Source: a virus (Duplodnaviria; Heunggongvirae; Uroviricota; Caudoviricetes). From it: DNA of 7,803 bases. Below are positions 1 through 5,967 of this stretch, one piece after another (the first letter of the stretch is position 1; the number at the start of each line of letters is the position of its first letter). The stretch lies in the IMG/VR virus record IMGVR_UViG_2711768004_000001; one strand, written 5' to 3'. The notes under the pieces are model-generated. The model searched no databases and was not told the origin of the DNA. It saw nothing but the letters and a program-made list of their open reading frames with translations. The translations under genes were made by a program, and so were the position numbers.

Positions 1-34
1 CTCCAATGACTAGTCTAAAAACTAGTATTAAGAC

Positions 35-54
35 TATCACTTATTTAAGTGATA
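35..54. promoter_or_regulatory. 20-bp near-perfect palindrome TATCACTTA-TT-TAAGTGATA (operator-like site) upstream of the endolysin gene
   Basis: Read directly: 9-bp arms TATCACTTA / TAAGTGATA are exact reverse complements, separated by 2 bp, 55 bp upstream of the endolysin ATG. The outer TATCAC/GTGATA hexamers resemble lambdoid repressor/Cro operator half-sites. Two ACTAGT hexamers (9-14, 21-26) lie just upstream. Confidence 0.3.
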
Positions 55-108
55 CTGGTTGTCTGGAGATTCAGGGGGCCAGTCTAGTAAGGCTGCGAGA
101 GGTGAATA

Positions 109-488
109 ATGTCGCCATCATTACGCAAGGCTGTTGCAGTTGCTATTGGTGGCGGGGCTGTTGCTATAGCATCTGTGTTAATCACTGGCCCAGGTGGTAA
201 CGATGGTCTGGAAGGTGTCAGCTACATACTATACAAAGATATCATTGGTGTATGGACTGTATGTCACGGACACACCGGAAAAGACATCATGCCTGGTAAA
301 ACGTATACCGAAGCAGAATGCAAAGCTCTCCTGAATAAAGACCTTGCCACTGTCGCCAGACAAATTAACCCGTACATCAAAGTCGATATACCGGAAACAA
401 CGCGCGGCGCTCTTTACTCGTTCGTTTACAACGTGGGCGCTGGCAATTTCAGAACATCGACGCTTCTTCGCAAAATAAACCAGGGCTA
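109..488 (+). CDS. SAR endolysin (phage lysozyme, T4-lysozyme-like GH24, P21 R-type); 3' end lies inside the N-run
   Basis: RBS GAGAGGTG 5 nt upstream of ATG 109. N-terminal Gly/Ala-rich weakly hydrophobic segment ([20 protein letters not shown]) typical of a signal-arrest-release domain. Catalytic E35 (211-213), D44 (238-240), T50 (256-258) in E-x8-D-x5-T spacing. Overall match to recalled P21 R-like lysozymes. Roughly 40 C-terminal residues are expected inside the gap. Confidence 0.85.
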
Positions 489-767
489 NNNNNNNNNNNN
501 NNNNNNNNNNNNNNNNNNNNNNNNNNNNNNNNNNNNNNNNNNNNNNNNNNNNNNNNNNNNNNNNNNNNNNNNNNNNNNNNNNNNNNNNNNNNNNNNNNNN
601 NNNNNNNNNNNNNNNNNNNNNNNNNNNNNNNNNNNNNNNNNNNNNNNNNNNNNNNNNNNNNNNNNNNNNNNNNNNNNNNNNNNNNNNNNNNNNNNNNNNN
701 NNNNNNNNNNNNNNNNNNNNNNNNNNNNNNNNNNNNNNNNNNNNNNNNNNNNNNNNNNNNNNNNNNN
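489..767. other. Run of 279 N (assembly gap or masked sequence)
   Basis: Contiguous n characters. Hides the endolysin 3' end and the 5' ends of Rz and Rz1. Gap length is probably not the true length. Confidence 0.99.
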
Positions 768-950
768 AAATGCCCTGTGCCATCCTCAGCCGAAACCTCC
801 AGCGCCTCCGGCATGGGCAATGATGCCACCGTCGAACTCTCTCCAGTTGCTGGACGAAACGTTCTCGGTATCCGGGACGGAATCATCAGCGACCAGACAG
901 CATTGAGAATGCTTCAGGAGTACATCAGGATCCAATGCCTTGGGGGGTAG
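768..950 (+). CDS. Rz-like inner-membrane spanin (i-spanin), C-terminal portion; 5' end in N-run
   Basis: Frame ending TAG 948-950 translates ...ASGMGNDATVELSPVAGRNVLGIRDGIISDQTALRMLQEYIRIQCLGG. This is comparable to the lambda Rz C-terminus as recalled (ASGVDNAASPRLADTAERDYFTLRERLITMQKQLEGTQKYINEQCR), including the penultimate Cys. Position directly after the endolysin. Confidence 0.6.
   Translation, partial: KCPVPSSAETSSASGMGNDATVELSPVAGRNVLGIRDGIISDQTALRMLQEYIRIQCLGG
769..906 (+). CDS. Rz1-like outer-membrane lipoprotein spanin (o-spanin), C-terminal proline-rich part, embedded in the +1 frame of Rz
   Basis: +1 frame relative to Rz reads ...CHPQPKPPAPPAWAMMPPSNSL..., stop TGA 904-906. 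Resembles the lambda Rz1 motif KPPPPPAWIMQPP as recalled. Signal peptide and lipobox would be in the gap. Confidence 0.55.
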   Translation, partial: NALCHPQPKPPAPPAWAMMPPSNSLQLLDETFSVSGTESSATRQH

Positions 951-1003
951 CGGTAATTTTACTCATTATCCTTCAAATCAGATTCTGTTGTCAGAGGAAT
1001 GGG

Positions 1004-1030
1004 GGAAGCTGGATTCGCAAGAGCTTTTTA
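1004..1030 (+). terminator. Weak hairpin followed by T-run downstream of Rz (possible intrinsic terminator)
   Basis: AAGCT (1006-1010) pairs with AGCTT (1022-1026), 11-nt loop, followed by TTTTTA (1025-1030). Short stem, so weak. Confidence 0.2.
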
Positions 1031-1038
1031 TGGGCAGT

Positions 1039-1548
1039 TTAGCTAAAAAAAGGCAACACGAAGCTAAAACTACCAACATAAAGTGCTGACCAGCTAGCAG
1101 CTGAAATCAGACTCACTGTATACACTTTCACTGGATGAAGTTGCAACATTCCTGCCACCAAAGGAGCAATATAACGCAGCACGGCGATAAAGCGCGAAGT
1201 GAAAAGTATTGACACAGAGTTATTTTGCAACTGAAGGCGAACCCGTTCTATTGTATTGGAACGGCTTGATATTATACATGCAAGTTGAGGGATATGCCCA
1301 ATTATTATACCAAGATGGTAATTAACGATAGTACCGCACCATGCGCCACTCATGACCGTGATTCCAGCTTCCCATGGTGAAAGAGTCGTCTTGCTGACTG
1401 TAATTACAGTGGCCATCATAATTGATGCTGGTGGCAATATCGCCGAAATGAGTAAAGTGGATTTTGTGAACGCTATTATAAAAAGAAGCCCCCATAGGCG
1501 ATATGGATGAAGTACAAAATAGTTCATCAAAGCATTTATCCACTCCAT
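1039..1548 (-). CDS. DedA/YqaA-family small polytopic inner-membrane protein; reverse-oriented AT-rich moron
   Basis: 169-codon ORF on the minus strand. ATG at 1548-1546 is preceded by AGGA with 9-nt spacing (the track's first codon is TTG at 1551). Stop TAA at 1041-1039. Several hydrophobic segments. Motif FTSRFIAVLRYIAPLVAGM resembles the DedA/YqaA signature (F-x-x-R-F-x-P-x-x-R-x-x-x-P-x-x-AG). Visibly AT-rich versus the flanking phage genes and opposite in orientation to the late operon. Confidence 0.55.
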   Translation of the reverse strand: MEWINALMNYFVLHPYRLWGLLFIIAFTKSTLLISAILPPASIMMATVITVSKTTLSPWEAGITVMSGAWCGTIVNYHLGIIIGHIPQLACIISSRSNTIERVRLQLQNNSVSILFTSRFIAVLRYIAPLVAGMLQLHPVKVYTVSLISAASWSALYVGSFSFVLPFFS

Positions 1549-1601
1549 CAATGTCTTTCCTTCTGTGAATTTTTCTTTGCTATTTAACCGTGATACGACT
1601 T

Positions 1602-1631
1602 AATTTAGGCTTAAACACCTTACATTTACAA
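1602..1631 (-). promoter_or_regulatory. Candidate sigma70-like promoter for the reverse-strand moron
   Basis: On the minus strand: TTGTAA (plus 1631-1626), 18-nt spacer, TAAATT (plus 1607-1602), about 50 nt upstream of the moron ATG. Pattern match only. Confidence 0.15.
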
Positions 1632-1634
1632 GGT

Positions 1635-1673
1635 ACTCCTGTGGGGGGCCCTGCCACGGAGCGTCGCAGGAGT
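1635..1673. repeat. GC-rich inverted repeat (ACTCCTG ... CAGGAGT) enclosing a G/C-rich core; candidate terminase/cos-type site or regulatory hairpin
   Basis: 7-bp arms 1635-1641 and 1667-1673 are exact reverse complements around a 25-nt core (TGGGGGGCCCTGCCACGGAGCGTCG). The core holds an inner CCTGC/GCAGG inverted repeat and a GGGCCC palindrome. It is a GC-rich block in an otherwise AT-rich intergenic region, 70 bp upstream of the small-terminase start. No U-tract on either strand, so not a classic intrinsic terminator. Confidence 0.3.
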
Positions 1674-1745
1674 GAGTGATGAGGAAGAATTAAAGCAACC
1701 TATTGTGACAGGCAGCGATAACAGTAAATCACAGGAAGCATAATC

Positions 1746-2510
1746 ATGGCAAAACCGGACTGGGAGGCCATCGAATCGGCATACCGGGCCGGAGTCCTTA
1801 GCCTCCGTGATATAGGCGAGAAATACGGCGTTACAGAAGGGGCTATCAGGAAGAGGGCCAAAAAGCTTGGTTGGGCACGCAGTGGCGGTACGCAGGTTTG
1901 CAAAAATGGTACGCAAAAAAGGAAAGTGCGTACCAGCAGAAAGCCTGCCATTACTGGCCTTACACAAAAAAGTACGCAACTAAAAACAGAATCTACACCG
2001 GATACGAAACCGATACGCGGAATGCGTACCGATCCCCCGACTAACCCATTCCAACCCGGTAACCAGCAGGCATTAAAACACGGTGGTTATGCCCGTCGCC
2101 TTCTGCTCAAAGATGAGGTGATAGAGGACGCTAAAGCGTTGACGCTCGAGGACGAATTATTTCGCCTTCGTGCTAACAACCTTGTCGCTGCAGAGAATAT
2201 TGGTCGGTGGTTGGTGTCGCTGGAAGATGCTAATGGGGACCAGGAAAGGAAGATGCTGATTGAAAATATCAGCGCCGCCGAGAAAGCAATGATGCGCAAT
2301 ACAGTTCGTATTGAGTCCATCGTTGGCACGCTTGCGACGGTAGGAAAAATATTTGCTGATACAGCCTACCGCAAGGCCGCCACTGATAAGGTGTCTCTGG
2401 AGGCTGATCGTCTTCGCCGTGATGCAGGTATTGATGATGGCAATGGAGAGCGTGACCTCAATGACTTCTACTCTGACATCCAAACCGACGCTGAATCCGG
2501 CTTTACGTAG
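1746..2510 (+). CDS. Terminase small subunit (N-terminal HTH DNA-binding domain)
   Basis: RBS AGGAAG 9 nt upstream of ATG 1746. N-terminus MAKPDWEAIESAYRAGVLSLRDIGEKYGVTEGAIRKRAKKLGW is a typical terminase small-subunit HTH. A basic low-complexity linker follows. Sits immediately upstream of, and overlapping, the large terminase gene. Confidence 0.85.
   Translation: MAKPDWEAIESAYRAGVLSLRDIGEKYGVTEGAIRKRAKKLGWARSGGTQVCKNGTQKRKVRTSRKPAITGLTQKSTQLKTESTPDTKPIRGMRTDPPTNPFQPGNQQALKHGGYARRLLLKDEVIEDAKALTLEDELFRLRANNLVAAENIGRWLVSLEDANGDQERKMLIENISAAEKAMMRNTVRIESIVGTLATVGKIFADTAYRKAATDKVSLEADRLRRDAGIDDGNGERDLNDFYSDIQTDAESGFT
1887..2040. repeat. Cluster of direct and inverted GTACGCA repeats inside the small-terminase gene (candidate pac / terminase recognition site)
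   Basis: GGTACGCA at 1887-1894 and 1908-1915, GTACGCAA at 1972-1979, inverted TGCGTACC at 1927-1934 and 2033-2040. Copies 1908-1915 and 1927-1934 form an 8-bp inverted repeat with an 11-bp A-rich spacer. Confidence 0.3.
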
Positions 2511-3864
2511 TTTCTGGACTATGCGGGCACGTAACAAAGTGCTTTATGGTGGTCGGTCATCGTCAAAATCATGGGATGCCGCTGGCATTGCCATATTTCT
2601 GTCGAATAAATACACCCTGCGTTTTTGTTGTGCCCGTCAGATCCAGAATAAAATCGAAGAGTCGGTGTATACCCTGCTCAAAATTCAGATAGACAGGTTT
2701 GGTCTGCGGCACCGTTTCCGTATTCTGAACAACAAAATCATTAACCGGGTTACTGGCTCGGAATTTGTTTTTTATGGATTATGGCGCAACATCGAAGAAA
2801 TTAAGTCACTGGAGGGGATCGATGTGTTGTGGCTGGAAGAAGCCCACGCACTGACGGAATACCAGTGGAAAATTCTGGAGCCAACGATCCGTAAAGAGGG
2901 TTCGGAATGCTGGTTCATATTCAACCCCGGACTTGTTACTGATTTCGTCTGGCGCAACTTCGTTGTTGATCCGCCCGAAGGCACTCTCATCCGCAAAATT
3001 AACTATGACGAAAATCCGTTTCTGTCTGACACCATGCTTAAGGTTATCGACGCGGCGCGACGCCGTGATCCGGATGGTTTTAAACATGTGTATGAGGGCG
3101 TTCCGGAGTCTGATGATGATGCGGCAATCATCAAACTGTCTTGGATAGAAGCCGCAGTGGATGCGCACAAAACGTTAAATTTCGAACCCAGTGGAAGAAA
3201 GCGTATTGGCTTTGACGTGGCTGACAGTGGTACAGATAAGTGCGCTAACGTTTACCGTCACGGATCCGTTGTTTTCTGGGCCGACGAATGGAAGGCCAAA
3301 GAAGATGAATTACTGAAGAGCTGCCAGCGTACTTATCAGGCGGCGCTGGAGCGTGAAGCAGATATTGTTTACGACTCTATCGGTGTTGGTGCGTCTGCCG
3401 GTGCTAAATTCTCTGAAATTAACGCTGACCGGAAGAGCGAGAACGCATACGCGCGACGTGTGAATTACCAGAGGTTTAACGCCGGTGCTGGTGTGCATGA
3501 GCCAGATGACGAGTACAACGGCATCCCCAACAAAGACTTTTTCGCAAATCTTAAGGCTCAGGCATGGTGGCTGGTGGCTGACCGTTTCAGAAATACGTTT
3601 AACGCCATTAACAACGGAGAACAGTATCCTGTGGATGAGCTGATCAGCATAGATTCTCGTTGTCCGTTGCTTGAAAAGCTGAAACTGGAACTGACAACAC
3701 CTCATCGTGATTTCGACCGTAACGGACGTGTGATGGTCGAAAGTAAAAAAGACCTCGCAAAACGCGAGATACCGTCACCAAACGTTGCTGATGCATTCAT
3801 TATGGCCTTCGCGCCAATCGATACATCGCTGGATATCTGGGAACAGCTGGGGAGACAGGCCTGA
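2461..3864 (+). CDS. Terminase large subunit (Terminase_6/PBSX-like ATPase-nuclease)
   Basis: Long ORF with P-loop-like LYGGRSSSKSW near the N-terminus and later blocks (IKSLEGIDVLWLEEAHALT, WFIFNPG, FVVDPPEG, AIIKLSWIEAAVDAHK) that match recalled P22/Sf6-type large terminases. Start chosen at ATG 2461 (GGAG 2445-2448; N-terminus MTST...). Alternative in-frame ATGs at 2434, 2437 and 2443. The track ORF start at 2353 is probably read-through inside the small-terminase gene. Stop TGA 3862-3864. Confidence 0.88.
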   Translation: MTSTLTSKPTLNPALRSFWTMRARNKVLYGGRSSSKSWDAAGIAIFLSNKYTLRFCCARQIQNKIEESVYTLLKIQIDRFGLRHRFRILNNKIINRVTGSEFVFYGLWRNIEEIKSLEGIDVLWLEEAHALTEYQWKILEPTIRKEGSECWFIFNPGLVTDFVWRNFVVDPPEGTLIRKINYDENPFLSDTMLKVIDAARRRDPDGFKHVYEGVPESDDDAAIIKLSWIEAAVDAHKTLNFEPSGRKRIGFDVADSGTDKCANVYRHGSVVFWADEWKAKEDELLKSCQRTYQAALEREADIVYDSIGVGASAGAKFSEINADRKSENAYARRVNYQRFNAGAGVHEPDDEYNGIPNKDFFANLKAQAWWLVADRFRNTFNAINNGEQYPVDELISIDSRCPLLEKLKLELTTPHRDFDRNGRVMVESKKDLAKREIPSPNVADAFIMAFAPIDTSLDIWEQLGRQA

Positions 3865-5330
3865 TGGCACGAAACAAACAAGCCCTGCGGCGAACTGTGC
3901 AGGCCACAGCTGATGGTTATGAGAATTTTATTGCCCGCGTAGGGATGCAGACACCTAACCAGCACTCAGCATCCACCTACCGGGCTAATTTCACCAGTCG
4001 TAACCGCATGCTGGTGGAATGGTCCTATCGTTCATCCTAGATCATCGGCGAAGCAGTCGATGCTATCCCGGATGATATGACCCGCAAAGGCATTCGCATC
4101 ACTTCGGAAATTGATGCAAAAGATCGTGGCATTCTCGAATCACAACTGGATGAGTTGCAAATCTGGGATGCGCTGAATGACGTGCTGAAATGGTCGCGCC
4201 TCTACGGCGGCGCGGTGGGTTTCATCATGATTGAGGGGTAGGCACCAATGACCCCGCTGCGACCCGAAACCATCGGTAAGGGCAAGTTTAAGGGGATTCT
4301 CCCGCTCGACCGCTGGATGGTCGACCCGGCACTGACCCGCCGCATTAAAGATATGGGGCCGGACCTGGGTAAACCTGAGTTTTACGATGTGGTGACCACA
4401 GCAACGGGAATTCCTGCCTGGCGCATTCATCACAGTCGCCTGATTCGCTTTGATGGCGTCACGTTGCCATTTCAGCAGAAGATGACCGAGAACGAATGGG
4501 GAATGTCGGTTGTAGAGCGTATCTGGGATCGTCTTACCGCGTTCGACAGCGCTACTGTCGGCGCGGCGCAGCTGGTCTACAAGGCGCATTTGCGTACCTA
4601 CAGCGTGGAGAAGCTACGCGAGCTTATCGCACTTGGTGGTCCTGCGTATGAAGCGTTGCTGAAGAATATCGACCTGATTCGACAGTTCCAGAGTAATGAA
4701 GGCATGACGCTCATGGACTCGCGGGATAAGTTTGAAACCCATCAGTACAGCTTCAGTGGTCTGGATGACATCCTTTCGCAGTTTGTAGAACAGATTAGTG
4801 GCGCTGTTGGTATCCCACTGGTGCGGTTGTTCGGACAGTCCCCGAAAGGATTTTCTACCGGTGATGCAGACCTTGCCAACTATTACGATCGCATCAGTTC
4901 GTTGCAGGAGAGGCGTTTACGTCTTCCGGTGCGGCGGATACTGGACATCATGCATCGTTCGGAACTTGGCAAGCCGCTGCCGGACGATTTCACGTTTGAG
5001 TTTAACCCGCTCTGGCAAATGTCTGATGTCGATCGCTCAACGGTGGCGTTAAACACCACCAACGCAATCAGTACGGCGCTGGGTGATGGTCTGATGACAC
5101 TGAAAGCCGCTATGACTGATTTGCGAGAAAATTCTGACGTAACCGGCATCGGGGCATCCATTACCGACGAGGACATCGAGAATGCCGAAGATGAAGCGCC
5201 GCCCGGCATCGGCGAACCTGATGACGAACCGCAGGAGCCGTCAGGCGGAAATCCGGTATCGAACCAGCCTACGCAGGATAGCGAGGGCGGTCGGAGACAT
5301 CGTAAATGGTCGCTACGATGGTTCAAATGA
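3864..5330 (+). pseudogene. Portal protein gene interrupted by two in-frame TAG codons (intact ORF remnant 4248-5330)
   Basis: ATG 3864 overlaps the terminase stop (TGATG). A single frame is readable from 3864 to 5330, with TAG at 4038-4040 and TAG at 4239-4241 as the only stops. Translation continues sensibly through both (…EWSYRSS*IIGEAVDAIPDD… and …FIMIEG*APMTPLRPE…). Acidic C-terminal tail. Position between large terminase and the Mu-F-like gene fits a portal. Confidence 0.75.
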
Positions 5331-5964
5331 CAGTATCACGGAAATTATTGCGGCGCTGGAGCGTTACAGTGAAATCATCACCCCCTGGGCGACAAAGGTC
5401 GCGGAAAACTTTACTGCGGACCTAACCCGGCAGAACGAGAAAGTTTGGCGGCAACACAGCAAGAACATCAGTCGCGAGCTCCGCAATCTTGTGGAAAGCG
5501 CTCCTGTGGGCCAGGTGATGCAATCCATCATCGCCGAACAGGTCAAGTACATCAAATCTCTGCCTCTCGAGGCCGCAGACAGGGTGTACGACATCCAGAA
5601 CAAAGCGATAGAGGCTGTTGTCACCGGTGGTCGGGCGGAGCAGTTTGCTAAAGAGATTGCATCTACCGGCGATGTTGCTAAGTCTAGGGCCGATCTGATT
5701 GCCCGAACGGAACTGGGAAGAGCAACGGGCGCGCTGGATATGGCCCGAGCGATAGCTATTGGCTCGGATGGTTATATTTGGCGTACAGCCGATGATGGCG
5801 ATGTCCGAGATTCCCACGATCACATGAAAGGTAAATTCGTCCGCTGGGATTCACCTCCAACTTTGGACGGCATGACCGGCCACGCGGGCGAGCTGCCAAA
5901 CTGCCGCTGCTATAAAGAGATCGTGTTTGTTCGCGTTCCATTCGCAATGAAAAGGGCAGCATAA
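5182..5964 (+). CDS. Head morphogenesis protein (phage Mu F-like / SPP1 gp7 family minor head protein)
   Basis: RBS GAGGA 8 nt upstream of ATG 5182. C-terminal region DDGDVRDSHDHMKGKFVRWDSPP...PNCRC is typical of the Mu F/gp7 family. Follows the portal. Overlaps the portal 3' end by 149 nt; an alternative ATG at 5221 exists. Confidence 0.8.
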   Translation: MPKMKRRPASANLMTNRRSRQAEIRYRTSLRRIARAVGDIVNGRYDGSNDSITEIIAALERYSEIITPWATKVAENFTADLTRQNEKVWRQHSKNISRELRNLVESAPVGQVMQSIIAEQVKYIKSLPLEAADRVYDIQNKAIEAVVTGGRAEQFAKEIASTGDVAKSRADLIARTELGRATGALDMARAIAIGSDGYIWRTADDGDVRDSHDHMKGKFVRWDSPPTLDGMTGHAGELPNCRCYKEIVFVRVPFAMKRAA

Positions 5965-5967
5965 CCC

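What the first reader, a model, noticed from the sequence alone, without database searches (positions are those of the whole stretch)
35..54. Operator-like 20-bp palindrome with lambdoid TATCAC half-sites upstream of the endolysin
TATCACTTA-TT-TAAGTGATA has perfect 9-bp arms. Its outer hexamers TATCAC/GTGATA resemble the consensus ends of lambda cI/Cro operators, as recalled. It sits in a roughly 100-bp non-coding spacer that begins with stops in two frames (TGA 7-9, TAG 11-13), directly before the SAR endolysin. Lambdoid lysis genes are normally tightly packed. A dimeric DNA-binding-protein site here, with two ACTAGT palindromes just upstream at 9-26, is unexpected and might regulate lysis-gene expression. 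It could also be a relic of recombination between modules.
Basis: seen in the sequence. Interest (0 to 1): 0.4.

Follow-up and report, generated by a model that had tools for sequence, protein, structure and literature searches.

The report
IS2 end, not a phage operator
The 20-bp palindrome is real, but it belongs to the left end of the well-known insertion sequence IS2, which has jumped into the phage holin gene just upstream of the endolysin; it is IS2's own repressor/transposase binding site and promoter, so the finding is ordinary.

Summary
The palindrome TATCACTTA-TT-TAAGTGATA is at window 35-54, as described. It is not part of a phage spacer. Window 1-86 is identical (86/86) to the left end of IS2, on the minus strand. 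The same 86 bp occur about 20,800 times in 4,678 of 5,426 complete E. coli genomes, including plasmids. Homology to intact lysis cassettes starts only at base 87. In those cassettes the 71-codon class II holin abuts the endolysin and the palindrome is absent. IS2 therefore sits 23 nt before the end of the holin gene.

In IS2 coordinates the palindrome is nt 33-52. Its left arm is the inner end of the 42-bp left inverted repeat, a motif shared with the right repeat. Its centre is the published docking site (TAAATAA) of the IS2 repressor OrfA/InsA. Its right arm runs into the weak extended -10 promoter P_IRL.

Relatives of IS2 keep a dyad at this spot with different, co-varying half-sites.

It names the wrong owner and the wrong target. 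The TATCAC resemblance to lambda operators is coincidental. This is already known biology and of low interest.

The parts
1..86 (-). Left end of insertion sequence IS2 (IS2 nt 86 to 1). It contains IRL, the operator/promoter region and the orfA leader. The window starts 5 nt short of the orfA ATG.
   Evidence: It is 86/86 identical to the IS2 copy in E. coli 042, L001 3001-3086, which abuts the annotated 'IS3-like element IS2 family transposase'. It occurs at 20,770 places in 4,678 of 5,426 E. coli genomes, 3,725 of them on plasmids. Homology to normal phage cassettes begins at base 87.
45..86 (-). IRL, the 42-bp left terminal inverted repeat of IS2 (IS2 nt 1-42).
   Evidence: 41 of 42 bases match the IRL sequence printed in PMC3219604 (TAGACTGGCCCCCTGAATCTCCAGACAACCAATATCACTTAA). 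The single difference, A32G, is shared with many IS2 copies.
35..54 (.). The 20-bp palindrome (IS2 nt 33-52). The arm at window 45-54 (IS2 nt 33-42, TATCACTTAA) is the inner end of IRL, a motif shared with IRR. The arm at window 35-43 is its mirror copy just inside the element.
   Evidence: The IRR inner end TTATCACTTAA is seen in L001. Published footprints show strong protection of IS2 residues 39-48 (PMC3299598).
41..47 (-). OrfA (InsA) repressor docking site, 5'-TAAATAA-3' (IS2 nt 40-46). This is the centre of the palindrome.
   Evidence: PMC3299598 names TAAATAA as the docking site. It places it at residues 39-42 (TTAA) plus 43-48 (ATAAGT), just upstream of P_IRL. The coordinates were mapped here.
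31..39 (-). Probable extended -10 element of the IS2 promoter P_IRL, TG-A-TAGTCT (IS2 nt 48-56). It overlaps the inner arm of the palindrome.
   Evidence: PMC3299598 and PMC3219604 place a weak extended -10 promoter immediately inside IRL, and a primer in PMC3219604 marks ATAAGTGATAGTCTTAATA... as that promoter. The exact bases are my inference from the TGnTATAAT consensus. TAG(T/G)CT is conserved in all relatives. The generic -35/-10 scan finds nothing here, as expected for a promoter without a -35.
9..26 (-). The two ACTAGT (SpeI) sites. They form an inverted repeat and possible hairpin in the orfA 5' leader, between P_IRL and the Shine-Dalgarno GGAG (window 4-1).
   Evidence: The predicted RNA hairpin is -5.8 kcal/mol, z -2.9. 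PMC3219604 mentions a SpeI site downstream of the promoter. Its function was not tested.
87..109 (+). The last 23 nt of the interrupted class II (S21-type) holin ORF, including its stop TAA at 107-109. The stop overlaps the endolysin ATG. GTAAG (87-91) is the predicted 5-bp target duplication.
   Evidence: An exact match to the intact holin 3' end in L005 and L004. IS2 lies after holin nt 193 of 216. The IS2 copy in L001 is flanked by a 5-bp repeat, TTTAG.
109..606 (+). Endolysin gene (rrrD-type; 489-767 is masked N). Its own ribosome-binding region is intact, but IS2 now separates it from the upstream late operon.
   Evidence: Window 87-488 differs at 2 of 402 positions from L005, where rrrD is 498 bp. 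The end coordinate is inferred from L005.

Best explanation
Window 1-86 is the left end of an IS2 element on the minus strand. IS2 has inserted into the 3' end of the prophage's holin gene, 23 nt before the holin stop and the endolysin start. The palindrome is IS2 nt 33-52. One arm is the inner, protein-binding part of the left terminal repeat, a motif also present in the right repeat and bound by the OrfAB transposase. The other arm is a mirror copy of that motif just inside the element, and it carries the TG and the first bases of the weak extended -10 promoter P_IRL. The centre, TAAATAA, is the published docking site of OrfA/InsA, the 14-kDa helix-turn-helix protein that represses P_IRL. 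Most likely a dimer of OrfA reads the two mirrored half-sites and occludes the promoter, competing there with the transposase, and so limits transposase synthesis. The site has no role in phage lysis control. Its presence marks a disrupted holin and a decaying prophage. Shown here: the identity with IS2, the insertion point, the multicopy distribution, the absence from intact cassettes, and a co-varying dyad in relatives. Taken from the literature: OrfA and transposase binding, and the promoter. Inferred: recognition of the two arms by a dimer, and the effect on the lysis genes.
For: The first 86 bases are 86/86 identical to an annotated IS2 copy, and 41/42 identical to the published IRL (PMC3219604). 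That copy is 1331 bp long. It has IRR TGGATTTGCCCC...TATCACTTAA, an A6G frameshift site and 5-bp flanking repeats. The 86-mer occurs at 20,770 places in 4,678 of 5,426 E. coli genomes and on plasmids. In the listed phage records and most E. coli prophages, homology starts at base 86-89. An intact relative that is 99.9% identical over window 768-7713 has the holin directly abutting rrrD and contains no TATCACTTA. PMC3299598 reports that OrfA binds just upstream of the extended -10 promoter inside IRL, that its docking site is TAAATAA, and that the transposase strongly protects residues 39-48. PMC3219604 cites evidence that OrfA dimerises through residues 58-105. Diverged IS2-subgroup elements carry a dyad at the same position, abutting or overlapping the first bases of TAG(T/G)CT, with different half-sites: CCTCTTAA/TTAAGAGG, TATCTC/GAGATA, TCTCTTA/TAAGAGA and CTCTTA/TAAGAG. 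On an alignment of 17 variants, 87% of mirror positions are complementary, against 32-59% in slid controls. One position switches A:T to T:A in 8 sequences and another switches T:A to C:G. The inner IRR motif changes in step, and so does the helix-turn-helix region of OrfA.
Against: The window holds none of the IS2 coding sequence. It therefore cannot show that this copy is complete, or that OrfA is made in this genome. The papers I could read define the OrfA site as the 7-10 bp centre and never describe a palindrome, so reading of the arms by a dimer is my inference. The two primary papers on OrfA binding and on the left-end promoter were not available. The dyad is degraded in some relatives (L082 4 bp, L076 5 bp, L086 5 bp). 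The covariation may represent only about two independent events.
Confidence: 0.93

Rival explanations
1. The site is a lambdoid-type operator in a phage intergenic spacer. The prophage's cI/Cro-like repressor binds it and regulates the endolysin or lysis cassette.
For: The outer hexamers TATCAC/GTGATA equal the consensus outer half-sites of lambda operators (from memory). The site lies 55 bp upstream of the endolysin start.
Against: The site lies inside IS2 and is found in thousands of unrelated genomic and plasmid contexts. It is absent from intact homologous cassettes, including one 99.9% identical. There is only one copy in the window. The hexamers are 8 bp apart, not 5 bp as in the 17-bp lambda operators.
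Confidence: 0.01
2. The inverted repeat acts mainly as an RNA (or single-strand DNA) hairpin. It might sit in the 5' leader of orfA mRNA made from the minicircle junction promoter, or in read-through transcripts crossing IS2, and affect stability, translation or termination.
For: The predicted hairpin is 8 bp with a 4-nt loop, -7.0 kcal/mol, z -2.5. The whole 86-nt end folds better than shuffles on both strands, z about -3 to -3.5. The compensatory changes in relatives would also preserve a hairpin, and a few variants show G:T (wobble-type) positions.
Against: The palindrome lies upstream of the -10 of P_IRL, so the element's resident-copy transcript does not contain it. No terminator-like T run was found and there is no Rfam match. 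One arm is also conserved at IRR, where there is no partner arm. Direct protein footprints on this DNA are published (PMC3299598).
Confidence: 0.05
3. The symmetry is a by-product. The left arm is simply the transposase-binding end of IRL and the right arm is simply promoter sequence. OrfA reads only the central TAAATAA, and the two arms match without being read as a dyad.
For: The literature defines the OrfA site as the centre, not the arms (PMC3299598). The dyad is weak in some relatives. The bare chance expectation of such a palindrome is not negligible, 0.16 per 7.5 kb.
Against: The arms co-vary across clades. The half-sites are TATCAC, CCTCTT, TATCTC and CTCTTA, each mirrored. Shuffles of the 32-nt region reach the observed arm length in 0-2.6% of cases for 10 of 16 variants.
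Confidence: 0.08

Closest known systems
IS2 (IS3 family, IS2 subgroup): left inverted repeat IRL, OrfA/InsA operator and extended -10 promoter P_IRL
   Same: The sequence is identical (86/86 to an annotated copy, 41/42 to the published IRL). It has the same order of features: terminus, cleavage domain, protein-binding domain, TAAATAA, TGnTAGTCT, leader and SD (PMC3299598, PMC3219604).
   Different: Nothing differs in the element itself except the common A32G variant. Only the insertion site is new. IS2 in the 3' end of this holin was not found in 5,426 E. coli genomes or in the GTDB representative genomes.
Lambda cI/Cro operators (OR1-3, OL1-3)
   Same: Both have approximate two-fold symmetry, the outer hexamers TATCAC/GTGATA, binding by a dimeric helix-turn-helix repressor, and overlap with a promoter.
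   Different: Lambda operators are 17 bp, with hexamers 5 bp apart, and come in tandem sets next to cI/cro (established knowledge). This site is 20 bp with hexamers 8 bp apart, is single, and lies inside an insertion sequence with no repressor/cro region nearby.
Autoregulation of other insertion sequences through their ends: IS1 InsA binding the IS1 terminal repeats (established knowledge), and the IS30 N-terminal fragment overlapping its promoter
   Same: A small element-encoded DNA-binding protein shares its binding domain with the transposase. It occupies an end-proximal site that overlaps the transposase promoter (PMC3299598 draws the IS30 parallel).
   Different: These are different families and different sequences. 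PMC3299598 notes that IS911 OrfA, the closest well-studied relative, does not have this repressor function.

Membership tests
IS2 (IS3 family) | Terminal inverted repeat with the IS2 IRL sequence (42 bp, terminus 5'-TAGACTGG...) | tested here: met
   Window 86-45 (minus strand) matches the published IRL at 41 of 42 positions. Window 1-86 is identical to an annotated IS2 copy (PMC3219604).
IS2 (IS3 family) | orfA and orfB joined by a -1 frameshift at A6G, and a second end IRR (41 bp) | not testable with these tools
   The window begins 5 nt short of the orfA ATG, and the source genome was not found. Both features are present in the reference copy L001: 1331 bp, AAAAAAG at nt 409, IRR TGGATTTGCCCC....
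IS2 (IS3 family) | 5-bp target-site duplication flanking the element | not testable with these tools
   Only one junction is in the window. GTAAG (87-91) is the predicted repeat. The L001 copy is flanked by TTTAG on both sides.
IS2 (IS3 family) | Multicopy, dispersed distribution in unrelated chromosomal and plasmid contexts | tested here: met
   20,770 places in 4,678 of 5,426 E. coli genomes, with a median of 3 per genome and up to 41; 3,725 are on plasmids. It is also in Shigella, Klebsiella and Enterobacter.
IS2 (IS3 family) | Interrupts an otherwise contiguous host sequence | tested here: met
   An intact holin-endolysin junction is seen in L004 and L005. Homology resumes exactly at window 87, after holin nt 193 of 216.
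OrfA/InsA operator of IS2 | Binding of OrfA and repression of P_IRL | not testable with these tools
   This rests on the literature only: PMC3299598, citing Hu et al. 1994 and Lei & Hu 1997. Those two primary papers are not held.
Lambdoid cI/Cro operator | 17-bp site with consensus half-sites at lambda spacing | tested here: not met
   The site is 20 bp and the hexamers are separated by 8 bp. The lambda geometry is from established knowledge.
Lambdoid cI/Cro operator | Several copies, located at a repressor/cro region of the same phage | tested here: inconclusive
   There is no second copy in the 7.8-kb window, but the immunity region is not in the window.
Lambdoid cI/Cro operator | Conserved at this position in homologous lysis cassettes | tested here: not met
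   In every listed phage record the match starts at base 86-89. 75 phage records cover at least 80% of the query. The site is absent from L004 and L005.

The most novel reading that the evidence does not exclude
The OrfA operator of IS2-subgroup elements may be a true dyad, built by mirroring the transposase-binding inner motif of IRL onto the promoter. It would be read by an OrfA dimer and would co-evolve with the OrfA helix-turn-helix and with IRR across the subgroup. The papers I could read do not describe it that way. A linked observation is that the 2-bp centre of the palindrome is flipped (AA to TT) in many Shigella and E. coli IS2 copies. This looks like a single hairpin-templated inversion, and it turns the asymmetric TAAATAA docking site onto the other strand. 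It might change repression or promoter strength, and so IS2 activity, in IS-rich lineages.
Probability: 0.4. Interest if true: 0.25.

Novelty: already known. Interest (0 to 1): 0.07.

Why it matters
The finding matters little for phage biology. It removes a false lead, a supposed lysis-gene operator. It shows that the 'spacer' is an IS2 insertion that truncates the holin and cuts the endolysin off from the late operon. The same prophage fragment is also bounded by IS1 at the other end, which fits an IS-riddled, decaying prophage. The practical lesson for a scan is that a perfect palindrome beside a contig or window edge should first be checked against insertion-sequence ends. The side observations (a co-varying dyad across the IS2 subgroup, and a flipped centre in many copies) could interest people working on transposase autoregulation, but they are incremental.

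Tried and rejected
- **Source genome.** I looked for it through the exact IS2/holin junction. There was no hit in the GTDB representative genomes. No E. coli complete genome covers the junction. The other IS2 junction and the target duplication therefore could not be checked.
- **Primary papers.** I tried to read Lewis et al. 2004 (J Bacteriol, 'The left end of IS2') and Lei & Hu 1997 (InsA domains). Neither is held. Hu et al. 1994 has no PMC id.
- **Promoter and terminator scan of 1-300.** It found nothing. This does not contradict a weak extended -10 promoter without a -35, but it gives no independent support either. It does argue against a terminator.
- **Rfam on the whole window.** No family matched.
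- **Search for the palindrome sequence in papers.** It found only an IS2 insertion reported as an indel in a Shigella dysenteriae variant table.
- **Nat Commun 2025 study of IS3-family ends.** It used the right end of IS2 only, so it says nothing about outward promoter activity of the left end.
- **Chance palindrome.** Considered and rejected because of the conservation and covariation.
- **Lambda-type operator.** Rejected on location, spacing and absence from intact cassettes.
- **Real gene at ORF 6-200 (+).** Rejected: it starts inside IS2 and runs across the junction.

Full report
**Observation.** Window 35-54 reads TATCACTTATTTAAGTGATA. It has perfect 9-bp arms (35-43 and 46-54) around a 2-bp centre.
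- The stops at 7-9 and 11-13 and the two ACTAGT sites at 9-14 and 21-26 are also there.
- The endolysin ORF starts at 109.
- On its own the palindrome is not statistically compelling. First-order Markov resamples of the window give 0.16 such inverted repeats (arms at least 9 bp, spacer at most 4), and 13% of resamples have one.
- Two other perfect 9-bp-arm repeats with wider spacing occur in the window.
- The half-site has no other copy in the window.

**What the surrounding DNA is.** A megablast of window 1-488 against complete E. coli genomes and against phage records showed that normal holin-endolysin cassettes match only from base 86-89 onward.
- The first 86 bases match elsewhere, always next to genes annotated as IS2 / IS3-family transposase.
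- In E. coli 042 (L001), window 1-86 is identical, 86 of 86, to the stretch that follows the IS2 transposase gene.
- That reference copy is 1331 bp. It starts with TAGACTGGCCCC and ends with GGGGCAAATCCA. It has the AAAAAAG frameshift site at nt 409 and is flanked by a 5-bp direct repeat, TTTAG.
- Read on the minus strand, window 86-45 matches the 42-bp IRL printed in PMC3219604 at 41 of 42 positions. The difference (A32G) is a common variant.
- The 86-mer alone hits 20,770 places in 4,678 of 5,426 E. coli genomes (median 3 and up to 41 per genome), 3,725 of them on plasmids. It is also found in Shigella, Klebsiella and Enterobacter.
- Window 1-86 is therefore the left end of IS2 on the minus strand. 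The window begins 5 nt short of the orfA start codon.

**Where IS2 sits.** An uninterrupted relative of this prophage (E. coli FDAARGOS_944, L005) is 99.9% identical over window 768-7713.
- In L005 a 71-codon class II holin ends in TAATG, which overlaps the rrrD-type endolysin start.
- Window 87-130 matches L005 exactly, and window 87-488 differs at 2 of 402 positions.
- IS2 lies after holin nt 193 of 216. Window 87-109 is therefore the last 23 nt of the holin ORF, including its stop.
- Neither L004 nor L005 contains TATCACTTA or a TATCAC-N8-GTGATA site.
- The 'non-coding spacer' is thus 86 bp of IS2 plus a holin remnant.
- The exact junction was not found in the GTDB representatives or in any complete E. 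coli genome. This insertion is strain-specific, and its other junction could not be inspected.

**What the palindrome is within IS2.** In IS2 coordinates it is nt 33-52, TATCACTTAAATAAGTGATA.
- PMC3299598 describes the ends of IS2 as bipartite, with an outer cleavage domain and an inner protein-binding domain.
- It states that the 14-kDa OrfA binds just upstream of the weak extended -10 promoter P_IRL, located just inside IRL.
- It reports that the transposase strongly protects the last 4 bp of IRL (TTAA, residues 39-42) and the next 6 bp (ATAAGT, residues 43-48).
- These residues map exactly onto the centre of the palindrome (window 48-39).
- The arm at IS2 nt 33-42 (TATCACTTAA) is the conserved inner element shared with the right repeat, whose inner end is TTATCACTTAA.
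- The other arm (TAAGTGATA) runs into TG-A-TAGTCT, which I read as the extended -10. A primer in PMC3219604 marks ATAAGTGATAGTCTTAATA... as that promoter. The exact bases are my inference.
- PMC3219604 also cites evidence that OrfA dimerises through residues 58-105 and carries an N-terminal helix-turn-helix.
- So the site is an operator for a dimeric helix-turn-helix protein that overlaps a promoter. It is IS2's own operator, and the promoter fires away from the endolysin.

**Independent comparative test.** I fetched IS2 relatives through OrfA, from genomes and from metagenomes using an OrfA alignment. I then compared their left ends.
- Every clade has a dyad at the same place, abutting or overlapping the first bases of a conserved TAG(T/G)CT hexamer, but the half-sites differ:

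| Clade (example loci) | Dyad |
|---|---|
| IS2 | TATCACTTA / TAAGTGATA |
| Aeromonas-type (L084, L155) | CCTCTTAA-C-TTAAGAGG |
| Large metagenomic clade (L096) | TATCTC-N7-GAGATA |
| L089 | TCTCTTA-AAA-TAAGAGA |
| L161, L163 | CTCTTA-AAA-TAAGAG |

- Shuffling each 32-nt region reaches the observed arm length in 0-2.6% of trials for 10 of 16 variants. The dyad is weak in L082, L076, L086 and L152.
- On a 17-sequence alignment, 87% of mirror positions are complementary, against 32-59% when the partner is slid by 1-3 columns. No column shuffle reaches the observed covariation score.
- Column pair 15/27 is A:T in 8 sequences and T:A in 8. Pair 13/29 changes T:A to C:G in one sequence.
- These counts are sequences, not events, and may reflect only about two independent changes.
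- The IRR inner motif changes in parallel (Aeromonas type TCCCGCTTA; L003 type TGTATCTTAA).
- The OrfA helix-turn-helix region also changes in parallel (VARQHGVAASQLFLWRKQ in IS2 against VARLH...LFKW.KQ in the T-type clades).
- This supports selection for a mirrored pair of half-sites read by the same DNA-binding domain.

**Rivals.**
- A lambdoid operator is excluded for three reasons. The site lies inside IS2. It is absent from intact cassettes. The hexamers are 8 bp apart, against 5 bp in the 17-bp lambda operators (established knowledge).
- An RNA hairpin is possible in transcripts that cross the site (-7.0 kcal/mol, z -2.5), for example mRNA from the minicircle junction promoter described in PMC3299598. 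However, the site lies upstream of the P_IRL -10. There is no terminator-like tail and no Rfam match. One arm is conserved at IRR without a partner.
- A by-product symmetry, with OrfA reading only the centre, cannot be excluded without binding experiments, but it fits the covariation poorly.

**Consequences for the locus (inferred).**
- The holin has lost its last codons. If the usual 5-bp duplication (GTAAG) is present, it reads into IRR after codon 66.
- The endolysin keeps its ribosome-binding region. It is now separated from the late promoter by about 1.3 kb of IS2, which late transcripts would have to cross antisense to the transposase genes.
- The published outward-facing -35 of IS2 lies in IRR (PMC9330008, PMC3299598). 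That end points away from the endolysin here, so activation by a fusion promoter is not expected.
- The other end of the window (7714-7803) is an IS1 end, and homology to the intact prophage stops at 7713.
- The window is a prophage fragment bounded by two insertion sequences. This is typical of an IS-rich host such as Shigella, and of short-read contigs that break at repeats.

**Verdict.** The feature is the well-characterised left end of IS2. Novelty: already known. Interest: low.

Noticed in passing
window 7714-7803: The last 90 bases are an IS1 end. They are 100% identical to sequences under 'IS1-like element IS1A family transposase' and occur at more than 72,000 places in E. coli genomes. 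Homology to the intact prophage stops at 7713, just after the 7192-7698 head-protein gene ('structural cement protein Gp24' in L005). The window is therefore bounded by IS2 on one side and IS1 on the other.
   Followed up: yes
window 41-48 (palindrome centre); loci L006-L068: IS2 copies come in two forms that differ only by a flip of the 2-bp centre. In IS2 orientation these are CTTAAATAAG (this window) and CTTATTTAAG, which are reverse complements of each other. Among 61 copies there were 37 G32/TT, 19 A32/AA and 5 G32/AA, with no single-base intermediates. This looks like a single inversion event, perhaps a hairpin template switch. It puts the TAAATAA docking site on the other strand.
   Followed up: partly
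L003 1700-1730 and 3040-3075 (E. coli RM10740): A different IS2-subgroup element (OrfA 74% identical to IS2's) has inserted into the 3' end of the same kind of holin, within about 20 bp of the IS2 site seen here. It appears to be flanked by a 15-bp direct repeat, CTGCGAGAGGTGAAT. That is far longer than the 3-5 bp usual for the IS3 family, and it duplicates the endolysin ribosome-binding region. This may be a hot spot or a selected rearrangement; it is unexplained.
   Followed up: no
window 489-767: A run of 279 N masks the 3' part of the endolysin gene and the start of the Rz-like lysis gene. Some ORFs in the mechanical list run through it and are artefacts.
   Followed up: no
window 1039-1551 (minus strand): A DedA-family membrane protein gene lies on the opposite strand, between the lysis cassette and the terminase genes. 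It is annotated as such in the 99.9% identical relative L005. It looks like a moron-type cargo gene.
   Followed up: no
window 9-26 (minus strand): The two ACTAGT sites form a 7-bp hairpin (-5.8 kcal/mol, z -2.9) at the predicted 5' end of the orfA leader, just before the Shine-Dalgarno sequence. It is largely conserved in close IS2 relatives but not in the Aeromonas-type elements. It may be an mRNA 5' stem-loop.
   Followed up: partly
loci L043, L046, L051, L069: Exact or near-exact IS2 copies sit on very short contigs (558-1543 bp) in assemblies labelled Streptosporangium, Paenisporosarcina, Lamprocystis and Brevibacterium. These are most likely E. coli or cloning-host contamination of those assemblies rather than genuine horizontal transfer.
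   Followed up: no
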